Shown here piece by piece: positions 38,076-46,557 of a stretch of DNA of 64,000 nucleotides. A program made the translations under genes and the position numbers. The notes under the pieces were generated by a model, which was not told the DNA's origin, searched no databases, and worked only from the letters and a program-made list of their open reading frames with translations. Source of the stretch: Stegostoma tigrinum (taxonomy: Eukaryota); contig NC_081361.1 in the NCBI RefSeq assembly GCF_030684315.1, forward strand, positions 5,853,014 to 5,917,013. The letters run 5' to 3'. Positions within the stretch are counted from its first letter, which is position 1. Each line of letters begins with the position of its first letter.

Positions 38076-38179
38076 GAAGAGGAAGTGTGAGGGGCTGACG
38101 TGGCTCTCTCTCTGCTTGATGCCATTTACATATTGAGGAACACCCAGTAAGACTCTCGCAGGCTGCAGCTTTATAAAGC
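38076..38179 (+). promoter_or_regulatory. V promoter, cluster B: GAGGAAGTG (38079-38087), TGACGTGG (38096-38103), ATTTACAT (38124-38131), TATAAA (38172-38177)
   Basis: Same motif order and spacing as cluster A, 60-160 nt upstream of the leader ATG. Confidence 0.8.
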
Positions 38180-38237
38180 AGGGCCAAGAGAAAGGAGAGT
38201 TTATCAGGCACCAGGCACAGGGACAGGAGCACGCACC

Positions 38238-38286
38238 ATGATTTCATATATCCAGCTGATCTGGCCTCTGGCATTCTGCGTCGCAG
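38238..38286 (+). CDS. IGKV: Ig kappa leader exon (L1), cluster B: MISYIQLIWPLAFCVA(G)
   Basis: caccATG at 38238; 49 nt; GT donor at 38287. Confidence 0.95.
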
Positions 38287-38472
38287 GTACAAATCTCTCT
38301 CCTTCCACCTTGAATCTTCAGCTGCTCTCCATTTCACTCCAATTCCATTGACTTGTGATTGAAGGGAAAATGCTGAAACCAGAGAAATGCTCAGTGTCTC
38401 CAACAATCTCTCATTTGACAGGATCTTTCTGTGACCGTTTTGGCTTCACTGTGTTTCTCTCTGACCCCTCAG

Positions 38473-38753
38473 GTATCAGTGGGGACATCACCATGACCCA
38501 GTCTCCCCCGGTGCTGTCAGTGGGACTGGGCCAGACCGCAACTCTCACCTGTACGGCCAGTCAGAGTGCCACTACGGATGTTGAATGGTTCCAGCAGCAA
38601 GAAGGACAGAAACCCTCTCTCCTGATCTACAATGCAGTAGCACGATTCACCGGGAGAGAAGTGTCCAGCACACACTTTACCCTGACAATCAGCAACGTTC
38701 AGAAAGAGGATGTCGCTGACTATTACTGTCAGCAAAGTAGGGCCTACCCTTGG
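38473..38753 (+). CDS. IGKV: Ig kappa V exon, cluster B, open frame but 6 aa shorter after CDR2: [90 protein letters not shown]
   Basis: Acceptor AG at 38471-38472; both Cys and the Trp retained; RFTGREVSSTHF replaces [18 protein letters not shown] of cluster A. Functionality uncertain. Confidence 0.92.
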
Positions 38754-38781
38754 CACAGTGATAGAGAGCTGTACAAAAACC
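38754..38781 (+). other. 12-bp-spacer RSS of cluster B V, perfect consensus (CACAGTG-12-ACAAAAACC)
   Basis: Heptamer 38754-38760, spacer 38761-38772, nonamer 38773-38781. Confidence 0.96.
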
Positions 38782-42900: not shown

Positions 42901-43260
42901 TTCTCCTGATTTATTTTCTACCCCACATCCTGACCACTGCTCGGAGGCCTGTACACGAGTCCCATCAGGGCCTTTTATTCTTCATGGTTCATCAGCTCTA
43001 CCCCCACAGATTCTATGTCTTCTGACTCAATAAGGCTCTTGCTATCAATTTAATTTAATTTCTTAGTGACAAGGCACACCTGCCCTCTTTGCCCATTGTC
43101 TGTCCTTTCAATAGGACGTGTACCCTTGGATATTTAGTTCCCAGCCCTGATCCCCCTGCAGCCACATCACTGTGATACCCACAACACTGTAGCTGCCAAT
43201 TTCAATCTGCATTACAAGCTCATTTCATATACTGTGTACAACTAAGTAAAACACCCTCAG
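39960..43260 (-). mobile_element. Degenerate CR1 fragments in the cluster B J-C intron, partly shared with the cluster A intron
   Basis: Reverse-strand ORF1, endonuclease and RT remnants; paralogous to 2600-2960 and 4490-4640. Confidence 0.7.
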
Positions 43261-45716
43261 TCCTGCATTGACCGCCCTCCTTCTTATAGTTGTTCCCTTA
43301 TCTGCTGTGCCTAGAGTTAGGTTTTTGATCGTTTCCATACTCTTTATCCTTTTACTTGTTCTGGAAACTTTAATTATCTCTCCAGATCCCAACCCCCATT
43401 CAAAGTCCTTGGAAACTAGATTTACCTCAATTTGCCACTTTGTTTACCTTATTTCAATTGCTTTGTGTGTTTAGACACAAAGCCTTTAAGTTTGTTCTTT
43501 TTTTAAAATCAAGTTTCCCTGCACCTTTGGTATAATATTACATTCACAAAATCTGTCTCTTCTTTTTATTTTCTGGTAACAATCAACCCCATTATTAACC
43601 AGCAAACCACCTTCTCCTTTATCTTTCAATTTCTCATTTTCCATCCAATCCCTTTCTCTTTGGGTCGAGTTCAGGCCAATATATAACCCTGAAACAACAT
43701 CAATGTAAATGGTTCTGTGATCTCATTGCTGCTCGTGGGATCTTCTTGAGTACAAACTGGCTGCCACATCCCACACATTCCAACAGTGACTGCTCTTCAG
43801 GCAAGGGCCTCACTATCTGTTAATGTCTTTGGGAGATCCCAAGGCATGAAGTACTCAATAGAAATACGTCTGTCTTTTCTATGGATGAACAGAGAGTCTT
43901 TCAGATGGGCAAGATGTCATTCCTTGGCACTATTAGACAAAGAACAGGGCAGATTCTCCTGGTGTCCTGGTCAATCATTTTCCTCCCAATCACCATCATT
44001 AAAAATCTGATGCTCTGCTCATTATCACGCCGCTTGCTGGAATCTTGCTATGCACAATCTGCTGGAAAGAACAATTGGGACATCCTGAAGTGGGGCATGT
44101 GCTACACAAATGCAAGTTTTTCTTTGAGGTTGGAGTCTCCTGATCCTGACACTCACCCACTGTCCGTGCACTATCACCTTCCATGGGTTATGGGGTCATT
44201 AGGAGCAGTGATTCTACCTAACCCTGGGACACTGAGACTCATTGCAGCTTCACCCTTGACCTCAGCTCAGTGCTGGGCAGCAAGATTTAAAAAGAAATTG
44301 AGAACCTTCTATGTGGATACTCAATGTTACTCTTTTCTGAAGTGCCGGGACCCAAATCTACTCCAATGCTCTCAGATAAAGTTCTCTTGATTTGTGATTG
44401 ATCAGAGATACTGTGCTGGCGGCAGTGGCTCAATGGTTAGCCCTGCTGCCTCACAGCACATAGGGATCTGGGTTCAAATCCACTCTCAGGTAACCAACTG
44501 TATGAAATTTAAACAGTTGCCCTGTGCCTGAATGGGTTTCCTCCCACAGTCCAAAGAGGTGCAGCTTGGTGTGTTGGCCAGGCTAAATTATCCCTGGTGT
44601 CCTGCGCTTTGCAGGCTGGGTGGGTTAGCTGTGGGGTTACTCCTACTCTGGAGGGTTTGGTGAGTCAAGTGAATTTCCAAGTGTCTTTTCAGTGTGATGA
44701 GGATTTCTGCCTCTCCCACCCTTTCAGACAGTGAATTCCAGATCCTTTTGCCCTCTGGGGTGCTTACTCTTCAACTCCCCTCAAACCCTGTCCCCCATTC
44801 ATTTCAATTTCTCCCCATGGTTATTGCCCTCTCTGCTGATGGAAATCAGTCCTTCCTATCCACTCTACCCAGGCCCCTCTTTTACACACCTTGATCTAAT
44901 CTCTCCTCAGTCCCCTCTGTTCCATAGAAATCAGTCCCAGCTAAAACTCCCCATTCCTGACAAAATCCTCATAAATCTCCTCTGTTCCCTTTCTAACGGG
45001 ATCAGAGTCTTCCTATTATATGGTGACCAGAACTGTACACAGCTCTGTCTCTGTGCTCCAACTGGGGTTTTACACAGTTCCAGATTAACCTGTTCACCAG
45101 AATTGTATAGAGGATTGAACATCACCCTCCCCGTTTGTTCTTCTCTACTGTGGCTGCTTTCTCATATCCCAGGCCGAGAGTCTGGATTTGGGAATCCCAC
45201 CCTTACTCGATGGGAACAGATTCTGAACAATCTCGGTCTTGTCAGGGCACCAGGAGGCTTCCAAGGACACAAATTTCCTATCATGGAACTGGTTCCAGTC
45301 CCCTTTTACCAAATCACCGCAGTTTCACAAAATAGTTCACTCCCAAATGAAAACATTGACACATGCTCCATTTCCATCCCTACTGTCAATCTCACTGAGT
45401 TCTTCGTCACTGTCACTAAAATGCTCCCCCATTGATAGCCCTTCCAGCTGCTGCCCACATTCACCCCCTAAACAATGGTACCAAAACTGTCCCTTTCCCT
45501 TCTGCTGTTTCATCAACACCTTCTCAGGGCAATTAGGGGTGGGCAATAAATGCAGGCCCTGCCAATAACTCAAGAATTTAAACATCATCTATTCTTTTCC
45601 TGGGTTTGTTTGGTTTTGCCTACAAATGTTCAAATGGATTATTTTGACAGTTAATGTTCAGAGAGTTGAAATCCATTTGAATGGCAGGGATTAAAATTGC
45701 TTCTCTTGTCTTTCAG

Positions 45717-46021
45717 GCTGTGACAGGTCTCAGCCCAAGCTGACCCTGCTGCCCCCCTCTCCGGAGCAGGTCCAGACCAAGGGCACTGCCACTCTCGTAT
45801 GCCTTGCCAATCACTTCTATCCTGATGAGCTGGTAGTGCAGTGGAAGAAGGACGGTGCAGTCATTTCAGACGGGGTTCAGACCAGCACCTACAGTGTCAG
45901 CAGCCTGCTGACCCTCTCTGGCTCTGACTGGGAGTCCAATGCTCGCTTCTCCTGTGCCCTCACCCATGTCACCCTCTCCTCTCCCCTCAGCAAGAGCATC
46001 AGGAGATCAGAGTGTGTGTAG
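45717..46021 (+). CDS. IGKC: Ig kappa C exon, cluster B: (S)CDRSQPKLTLLPPSPEQVQTKGTATLVCLANHFYPDELVVQWKKDGAVISDGVQTSTYSVSSLLTLSGSDWESNARFSCALTHVTLSSPLSKSIRRSECV*; internally shortened
   Basis: Acceptor ttctcttgtctttcag (to 45716), phase-compatible with J; C1-set motifs ATLVCL..HFYP, W, TYSVSSLLTL, FSC..TH; penultimate Cys for the H-L disulfide; only 50 residues between the intradomain Cys. Confidence 0.95.
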
Positions 46022-46551
46022 TTGTTTGAGACAGTCCACAGAGGAGACACAACTTTAAACAGAACGGGGCTGAGCTGGCAGGGCAAAGGTCATTGTCAGC
46101 ACGGAACTTCAACTCGCTTCCTTCTTGGGTCTGGCTTGGAGACACATCTGAGGTTCAGGCCTTAAGATAGGTCATTGGGACAGTGTAGAAAGAGCTTTAC
46201 TCTGTTGCTCACCCCATGCTGTCTCTGTCCTGGAATTGTTTGATGGGGATAGTGTTGACTTGAGATAACAAACAAATGCTCTCGAAGTTGCTAAAGACTG
46301 TCAGTTTTACAAAAACAATGTGAACCTCACAAGTCTCTGCTACAGTAAACCAGACCTCCTTCCTGCTCAGCCGCCAGTTCCAATTTAAGGCTTTGTCACT
46401 GTTTAAATGGACAGGATTCTCATATTATTGAGAAAATCTTCACAAGTATTTTCCTCAAGCTCCATTGTGGTTGTGAATTTGTGCAGCTTCCTCTGTCTGG
46501 GCTGTTAATTACAATGTTTTTTTTTCCTGTCTAAGTCAATCTGGGAAAGGG

Positions 46552-46557
46552 AATAAA
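46552..46557 (+). terminator. Likely polyadenylation signal of the cluster B light-chain mRNA
   Basis: First AATAAA after the stop (~530 nt), followed by a GT-rich tract (tctctgtctgtgtctctgagtgtgtttt). Confidence 0.7.

What the first reader, a model, noticed from the sequence alone, without database searches (positions are those of the whole stretch)
38076..46557. Complete, rearrangement-competent kappa cluster encoding a doubly shortened light chain
Seen: cluster B has an intact promoter, leader, perfect 12-RSS, 23-RSS, splice sites, open frames and a polyA signal. Yet its V is 6 aa shorter after CDR2, its C has only 50 residues between the intradomain cysteines, and both losses are in frame. 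Established: CL domains normally have about 58-60 residues there (59 in human C-kappa), and the ABED sheet of CL packs against CH1. Inference: this is either a young pseudogene or a non-canonical mini light chain with altered heavy-chain pairing (for example free, homodimeric or surrogate-like), in a lineage that already produced a deletion-shortened V domain (VNAR).
Basis: partly seen in the sequence, partly recalled or inferred. Interest (0 to 1): 0.78.

Follow-up and report, generated by a model that had tools for sequence, protein, structure and literature searches.

The report
Doubly shortened shark kappa gene
A zebra shark antibody light-chain gene from an old side lineage has lost two short in-frame pieces and is still read into spliced transcripts, but the second loss likely spoils its pairing with heavy chains, so it is most likely a recently damaged gene rather than a new kind of antibody chain.

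Summary
The anatomy is confirmed. A split kappa (NS4/type III) V-J-C cluster has intact signals, open frames, a short V and a C with 50 residues between its cysteines (58 in other shark kappa chains). One correction: the V lost 7 residues, not 6. It belongs to an old kappa lineage, also found in catshark and bamboo shark, that carries one extra FR3 residue; all 6 relatives are full length. Both losses lie between short direct repeats (slippage), and only this cluster has them. The V deletion is bridged in two other samples. A third, spliced run holds cluster-specific V, J-C and C contigs. No V-J junction of this cluster and no contig bridging the C deletion were seen. In models, the V loses only strand C'' and stays confident, while the C domain drops to pLDDT about 69 against 83 in an undeleted control. 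The VH-facing residues are unchanged, so the VNAR analogy fails. Best reading (0.55): a recently damaged, still transcribed gene whose C deletion likely blocks CH1 pairing. A tolerated short chain (0.22), a haplotype-private C deletion (0.13) or a repurposed mini chain (0.10) remain open.

The parts
37792..37829 (+). second copy of the CRE-like/octamer-like promoter module, 302 bp upstream of the main one; found only in this cluster
   Evidence: 1 of 6 clusters, about 1250 bp upstream examined
38094..38177 (+). promoter: CRE-like motif, octamer-like ATTTACAT (38124-38131), TATA (38170-38177); same as in the paralogues
38238..38286 (+). leader exon (49 nt, phase 1), GT donor
   Evidence: leader-V and leader-C joints in X5 and X7/X5, all kappa clusters pooled
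38473..38753 (+). V exon of the divergent kappa lineage (CDR1 SATTDVEW, extra FR3 residue, 24-nt germline CDR3)
38643..38654 (+). site of the 21-nt deletion: the single remaining copy of the RFTG repeat; removes strand C'' (Kabat 54-60 or equivalent)
   Evidence: bridged by X1 and X2
38754..38781 (+). 12-RSS, consensus heptamer and nonamer
39201..39239 (-). 23-RSS of J, one nonamer mismatch shared with the paralogues
39240..39274 (+). J segment (FGKG), GT donor; both out-of-frame readings stop inside J
39275..45716 (+). J-C intron; 67-89% alike to paralogous introns, 89-94% to contigs of organism B (orthologue)
45717..46021 (+). C-kappa exon, 100 codons plus stop, keeps both intradomain Cys and the C-terminal Cys
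45719..45721 (+). private CGT>TGT change, Arg108 to Cys (Kabat number by alignment and recall)
45883..45887 (+). site of the 24-nt deletion between two CAGCA repeats; removes the second half of strand D and the DE loop
   Evidence: not bridged by any contig shown
46552..46557 (+). polyA signal AATAAA, conserved in the paralogues aligned

Best explanation
This is the zebra shark's single copy of an old, divergent kappa light-chain cluster that lost 21 nt in V and 24 nt in C, likely by slippage between short direct repeats; it is still transcribed and spliced, but the C loss is predicted to disturb the face that pairs with heavy-chain CH1, so the gene is likely a recently damaged, decaying one. 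Shown: the anatomy, the lineage, the repeats at both breakpoints, the V deletion in other samples, and cluster-specific spliced contigs. Inferred: (1) the V deletion removes only the edge strand C'', keeps Arg61/Phe62 and the VH face, and is probably tolerated; (2) the C deletion removes the second half of strand D and the DE loop, so the domain would fold poorly or in a shifted register and would fail to release the heavy chain from ER quality control; (3) B cells that rearrange only this cluster would be lost or use another light chain, while RAG signals and promoter persist because too little time has passed; (4) transcripts from unrearranged or out-of-frame alleles would skip from leader to C, as known for mouse kappa.
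For: Only 1 of 7 kappa C exons and 1 of 6 kappa V exons in the genome is shortened. The 58-residue C spacing holds in all 25 other shark chains measured. All 6 lineage relatives have a full-length V, and a rearranged chain with a lineage-type FR3/CDR3 has a full C (P0059), so both losses are late. Both breakpoints lie in direct repeats, and in-frame spacing is common among such repeats. The deleted C segment aligns with the D-strand/DE-loop segment of human C-kappa and C-lambda; that this strand lies in the CH1 interface is established knowledge, recalled. AlphaFold block means: C domain 69 with two stretches under 50 (287-289 at the junction, 318-323) against 83 and none under 50 in an undeleted catshark model of the same build; V 82 against 89 with a local dip only (one model each, and pLDDT is not stability). 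A new unpaired Cys arose by a CpG change. A leader-to-C joint is present among kappa contigs of X5, and both out-of-frame J readings put a stop inside the VJ exon, the condition for V skipping in mouse kappa (PMC4710196, section 5).
Against: No stop, frameshift or damaged signal; its 12-RSS is one of two perfect ones among 5 split clusters. The C exon has 1 private amino-acid change against 5 silent ones (P=0.004 under neutrality; the stop-bearing paralogue has 7:2), and V has only 2 rare framework residues, an ordinary number. Any relaxation is therefore recent: about 0.1-0.2, at most two thirds, of the time since the split from organism B (rough). Two large deletions beside about 3 replacements is an odd ratio for a dead gene. 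The lineage kept CDR1 identical between catshark and zebra shark, and this is the only copy in the assembly. V, J-C and C contigs specific to the cluster are present in X5. The C deletion is unverified outside the assembly. The leader-C contig that passes at 98% has leader letters shared by this cluster and L032, so it is not surely this cluster's.
Confidence: 0.55

Rival explanations
1. Both deletions are tolerated: the cluster still makes a working, shorter light chain that pairs with IgM or IgW, the C domain re-registering its D strand.
For: Intact signals and frames; purifying pattern in C, 1:5; VH face and C-terminal Cys kept; AlphaFold still draws an Ig sandwich with a short D-E hairpin; cluster-specific V and J-C contigs in X5; sole copy of a long-conserved lineage.
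Against: C spacing is invariant in 25 of 25 other shark chains; confidence falls across the whole C domain against the control; no V-J junction of this cluster among the rows shown (rows were cut).
Confidence: 0.22
2. The C deletion is private to the assembled haplotype or an assembly error; the species normally carries a working gene with only the C''-less V.
For: The V deletion is bridged in two samples, but no contig shown bridges the C deletion. The strong purifying pattern in C fits a very recent event.
Against: A clean 24-nt loss between repeats is an unusual assembly error (inference). Among the 6 loose-end rows shown for X5 at 98% (8 partly laid contigs in all), the only continuation into the deleted segment carries the private letters of paralogue L002; this is weak.
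Confidence: 0.13
3. The gene has been repurposed to make a heavy-chain-independent or surrogate-like mini chain, either the doubly shortened V-C chain or a V-less leader-C product that begins at the new Cys.
For: Leader-C splicing gives an open 117-residue frame and such joints exist in X5; a new Cys and a duplicated promoter module are private to this cluster; sterlet keeps a conserved V-less IgL (PMC5985310, section 26); no lambda5 or VpreB is known in fish (PMC5192425, passage).
Against: No hydrophilic change on the VH face; no other species with either deletion among the proteins found; V-less kappa chains are a known by-product of non-productive alleles and stress plasma cells in mouse (PMC4710196, section 5 and section titles).
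Confidence: 0.1

Closest known systems
Shark Ig kappa (nurse shark NS4, horn shark type III) split V-J-C miniclusters
   Same: One V, one J, one C per cluster; 12/23 RSS facing each other about 490 bp apart; C 91-98% identical to the 6 paralogues and 96% to nurse shark NS4 over aligned residues.
   Different: 21-nt loss in V, 24-nt loss in C and Arg108Cys, seen in no other cluster or protein examined.
Nurse shark NS4 clade III (gene SE7; Lee et al. 2000, PMC2193156)
   Same: Described as the most basal NS4 group with divergent FR3 and a 24-bp CDR3 (figure legends); this V has a divergent FR3 and a 24-nt germline CDR3 where the 4 other split clusters have 23.
   Different: The SE7 sequence is not printed there, so the match rests on two features. 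The paper places the clades' origin inside the nurse shark lineage, whereas this V groups with catshark and bamboo shark genes (100/97). No deletion is mentioned in the passages read.
V-less kappa chains from exon skipping in mouse (Srour et al. 2016, PMC4710196)
   Same: Leader spliced straight to C-kappa in frame when the VJ exon carries a stop.
   Different: There a by-product of out-of-frame alleles of a normal gene; here the C itself is shortened, and the assignment of the skip to this cluster is not certain.
VNAR of shark IgNAR
   Same: A V domain shortened by deletion in the CDR2 region, in the same animal group (recalled).
   Different: VNAR lacks C' and C'' and works without a partner (recalled); this V keeps C' and the hydrophobic VH face and is a light chain.
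Sterlet IgL4 (PMC5985310)
   Same: A light-chain locus giving a V-less C product.
   Different: Sigma type, fixed in the germline, without RSS, and conserved to paddlefish; here kappa, RSS intact, and no conservation of the deletions seen.

Membership tests
Shark Ig kappa (NS4/type III) cluster | V(12-RSS)-(23-RSS)J-C in one cluster, same orientation | tested here: met
Shark Ig kappa (NS4/type III) cluster | C and V sequences closest to NS4/type III | tested here: met
Shark Ig kappa (NS4/type III) cluster | full-length C1-set domain, 58 residues between the cysteines | tested here: not met
   50 residues; Pfam C1-set 59 bits against 79 for nurse shark P0038
Functional kappa gene | transcribed and spliced | tested here: met
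   cluster-specific contigs 38515-38628, 38630-38689, 45731-45792, 45764-45829 and joint 39274-45717 in X5; one run, RNA by inference
Functional kappa gene | somatic V-J joining with in-frame selection | tested here: inconclusive
   no junction of this cluster among the rows shown; 849 and 9 joint rows hidden
Functional kappa gene | pairs with heavy-chain CH1 and is secreted | not testable with these tools
   only monomer models were made
NS4 clade III | divergent FR3 | tested here: met
NS4 clade III | 24-bp germline CDR3 | tested here: met
NS4 clade III | groups with SE7 in a tree | not testable with these tools
   SE7 sequence not shown in the paper
VNAR-like autonomous V | loss of both C' and C'' strands | tested here: not met
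   model keeps C' (65-68) and lacks C''
VNAR-like autonomous V | hydrophilic remodelling of the partner face | tested here: not met
   F36, Q38, P44, Y87, F98 kept as in full-length relatives (numbering recalled)
Classical pseudogene | stop, frameshift or dead signal | tested here: not met
Classical pseudogene | replacement/silent ratio near neutral | tested here: not met
   1:5 in C over the whole branch; cannot exclude very recent relaxation

The most novel reading that the evidence does not exclude
The zebra shark has turned its one copy of an ancient invariant-looking kappa lineage into a mini light chain: a C''-less V on a C that has lost the CH1-binding half of strand D and gained a Cys, made also as a V-less leader-C form, acting without a normal heavy-chain partner (free, disulfide-linked or surrogate-like).
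Probability: 0.1. Interest if true: 0.8.

Novelty: new variant of a known kind. Interest (0 to 1): 0.34.

Why it matters
If it is decaying, it is an ordinary birth-and-death event, though it catches the loss of a kappa lineage whose CDR1 stayed identical between catshark and zebra shark; that conservation hints at a fixed, innate-like specificity and may be the more interesting side result. If the chain works, it would be a germline light chain without C'' and without half of strand D, a natural test of how little of CL is needed to pair with CH1, useful for antibody engineering and for seeing how deletion-shortened domains such as VNAR can begin.

Tried and rejected
No RNA holder was listed for the V exon; X5 is taken as RNA only because it shows GT..AG joints. 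X5 has no cover in the middle of the V-J spacer; a part without cover is not used as evidence of rearrangement. Contig depths in X5 (V 1746-1960, J-C 1273 plus 465, C 4363-5375, leader-C 4457 over 4 contigs of any cluster) hint that leader-C skipping is common here and that the cluster is a small share of kappa, but contig depth cannot rank genes or gene parts, so this is a lead only. A supposed solved antibody with a 7-residue VL deletion (PAM1.4, 7z12_C) was rejected: 233 residues fit a leader plus a normal chain, and the paper's main text has 0 hits for 'deletion' (supplements not read). Four paper searches and three PDB sequence searches with V (38, 63, 66) gave no precedent for a C''-less light chain; these searches are narrow. 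'Stegostoma' with light-chain terms gave 0 papers; searches gave none on this gene in their listings. Two relevant shark light-chain papers were not held. The fold search returned only ordinary Fab light chains. The C-only homologue search found no other shortened C among 5 hits. No complex was predicted: a CL-CH1 pass would follow from likeness to solved Fabs. Look-ups of earlier findings by place and by sequence were empty. The V and C state of the orthologue in organism B could not be read from the rows shown.
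Full report
Setting. The window is G000:C10:5853014-5917013. A protein 100% identical to the V is named LOC125456583 of Stegostoma tigrinum (P0028), so the animal is the zebra shark. Searches of the genome gave 7 kappa-type C exons (6 on C10, 1 on C770) and 6 kappa-type V exons. The finding, cluster B, is the last of the six on C10 and has no near-identical second copy in the assembly.

Observation. The octamer-like element differs from the textbook octamer by one base but is the same in 5 of 6 clusters. 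C has 50 residues between its cysteines; of 27 proteins measured, 25 have 58 and one bony-fish chain has 59. Against its paralogues C lacks 24 nt between two CAGCA repeats and has a private CGT>TGT change at its first full codon.

The V belongs to an old lineage. Its best foreign matches are a catshark V (78%) and bamboo shark V genes, not ordinary kappa V. They share the CDR1 type (the stretch around SATTDVEW is identical in catshark), an FR3 loop one residue longer than usual and a similar CDR3 start. In a tree of 43 V proteins they form one clade with support 100/97 (P0009 dropped for lack of a start match; P0026, P0028, P0035, P0054 and most mammal and fish hits not given). All 6 relatives have 53 residues from Trp35 to Cys88 and B has 46, so B lost 7 codons, between two RFTG repeats; in paralogue A these are a 7-nt repeat 21 nt apart. 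Lee et al. 2000 (PMC2193156; passages and figure legends read) describe a basal NS4 clade III with divergent FR3 and a 24-bp CDR3. B's germline CDR3 is 24 nt where the 4 other split clusters have 23. B is very likely of that clade, though SE7 itself could not be aligned. B's J-C intron is 67-89% alike to paralogous introns, while 7 contigs of run X7 (organism B) match it at 89-94% where paralogues reach 69-81% over long stretches or do not match at all, so another shark species has an orthologous cluster.

Are the deletions real? For V, yes: contigs of two samples run through the site with no difference (X1 38507-39211, X2 38513-39211). X5 has a 60-nt exact contig across it, with 13 and 35 letters beyond the repeat, short of the tool's 31-letter rule on one side. 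For C, no contig shown bridges the site; the lists were cut at 60-nt pieces. That is the main gap.

Expression. X5 is not on record as RNA but shows canonical splice joints and somatic V-J joints of other kappa clusters. It holds exact contigs whose 31-mers occur in no paralogue: 38515-38628, 38630-38689, 45731-45792 and 45764-45829. It also holds a J-to-C joint at 39274-45717 in B's letters; paralogue joints are listed apart with CC between. So B is transcribed and spliced in at least one sample. A leader-to-C joint (4 contigs, any cluster) is present too; the one that passes at 98% has leader letters shared by B and L032, so its origin is B or L032. No V-J joint of B is among the rows shown (849 and 9 rows hidden). 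Depth figures hint at frequent leader-C skipping in B but cannot carry that claim. In mouse, such skipping follows a stop inside the VJ exon (PMC4710196; outline and section 5 read); both out-of-frame readings of B's J stop inside J, and the unrearranged exon stops at codon 137.

Selection. B's C exon has 1 private replacement and 5 private silent changes (P=0.004 if neutral); the stop-bearing paralogue has 7 and 2. B's V has 2 rare framework residues, within the range of the other sharks, 0-8. Against an intron distance of 7.4% to organism B, neutral drift since that split would give about 13 replacements where 3 are seen; any relaxation covers about 0.2 of that time, at most two thirds (rough). 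So the gene worked until recently. In-frame status of both losses is weak evidence of selection, since 46% and 29% of short repeats in these exons have in-frame spacing. Against my reading, two large deletions beside only about 3 replacements is unusual for a dead gene.

Structure. The C deletion aligns with the D-strand/DE-loop segment of human C-kappa and C-lambda. From established knowledge (recalled), strand D lies in the sheet that packs on CH1, and the DE loop contacts Arg108, the residue that became Cys here. AlphaFold models of two read-through gene models with the same 41-row alignment gave, by 10-residue block means, V 82 (B) against 89 (catshark control) with a dip only at the deletion and no C'' strand, and C 69 against 83, with residues 287-289 and 318-323 under 50 in B and none under 50 in the control's C. 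This is one pair of models, and pLDDT is not stability, but it fits a tolerated V loss and a disruptive C loss. The VH-facing residues and the C-terminal Cys are kept, so nothing points to a free VNAR-like domain.

Verdict. The feature is real and is a variant of a known system. Most likely (0.55) it is a recently damaged, still transcribed clade III-type kappa gene. A tolerated short chain (0.22), a C deletion private to this haplotype (0.13) and a repurposed mini chain (0.10) are not excluded. I found no description of the gene in ten paper searches (listings only, except where reading is stated); two relevant papers were not held, and no supplements were read. Also read in passages: PMC5192425, PMC5985310 (with section 26) and PMC9668162.

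Noticed in passing
window 38484-38753; P0001-P0005, P0029: A kappa V lineage with a one-residue-longer FR3 loop and a CDR1 identical between catshark and zebra shark, while catshark framework residues follow the other catshark kappa genes; suggests an old fixed specificity kept through framework homogenisation.
   Followed up: partly
window 37792-37829: Cluster B alone has a second CRE-like/octamer-like promoter module 302 bp upstream.
   Followed up: partly
L036 and L006 (G000:C10:5719453-5739358); L007 (C770): A germline-joined VJ kappa pseudogene with stops in V and C and an FAKG J; contig C770 carries an identical C exon.
   Followed up: partly
L034 (G000:C10:5781820-5782107): Cluster with weakened 12-RSS nonamer and 23-RSS heptamer and 4 rare framework residues, including an extra Cys; may also be decaying.
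   Followed up: partly
window 12466-13599, minus strand; C exon L003 outside the window: Cluster A, an ordinary intact kappa cluster facing away from cluster B; its C lies about 6 kb left of the window.
   Followed up: yes
window 48806-49330, minus strand: Likely coding exon of a neighbouring gene with a coiled-coil-like sequence; RABGAP1-like from recall only, Pfam and atlas gave no support.
   Followed up: partly
P0059, P0060: Shark kappa light-chain sequences filed in NCBI under Aeromonas and Salmonella; P0059 is a rearranged chain with a lineage-type FR3/CDR3 and a full C.
   Followed up: partly
window 39274: X5 has a second J-C contig of cluster B with a change at the last J base (joint listed as 39273-45716); allele or somatic mutation, not resolved.
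   Followed up: no
window 5481-7133 and other places: Decayed reverse-transcriptase frames of CR1-like LINEs (family name recalled) inside and between the clusters.
   Followed up: no
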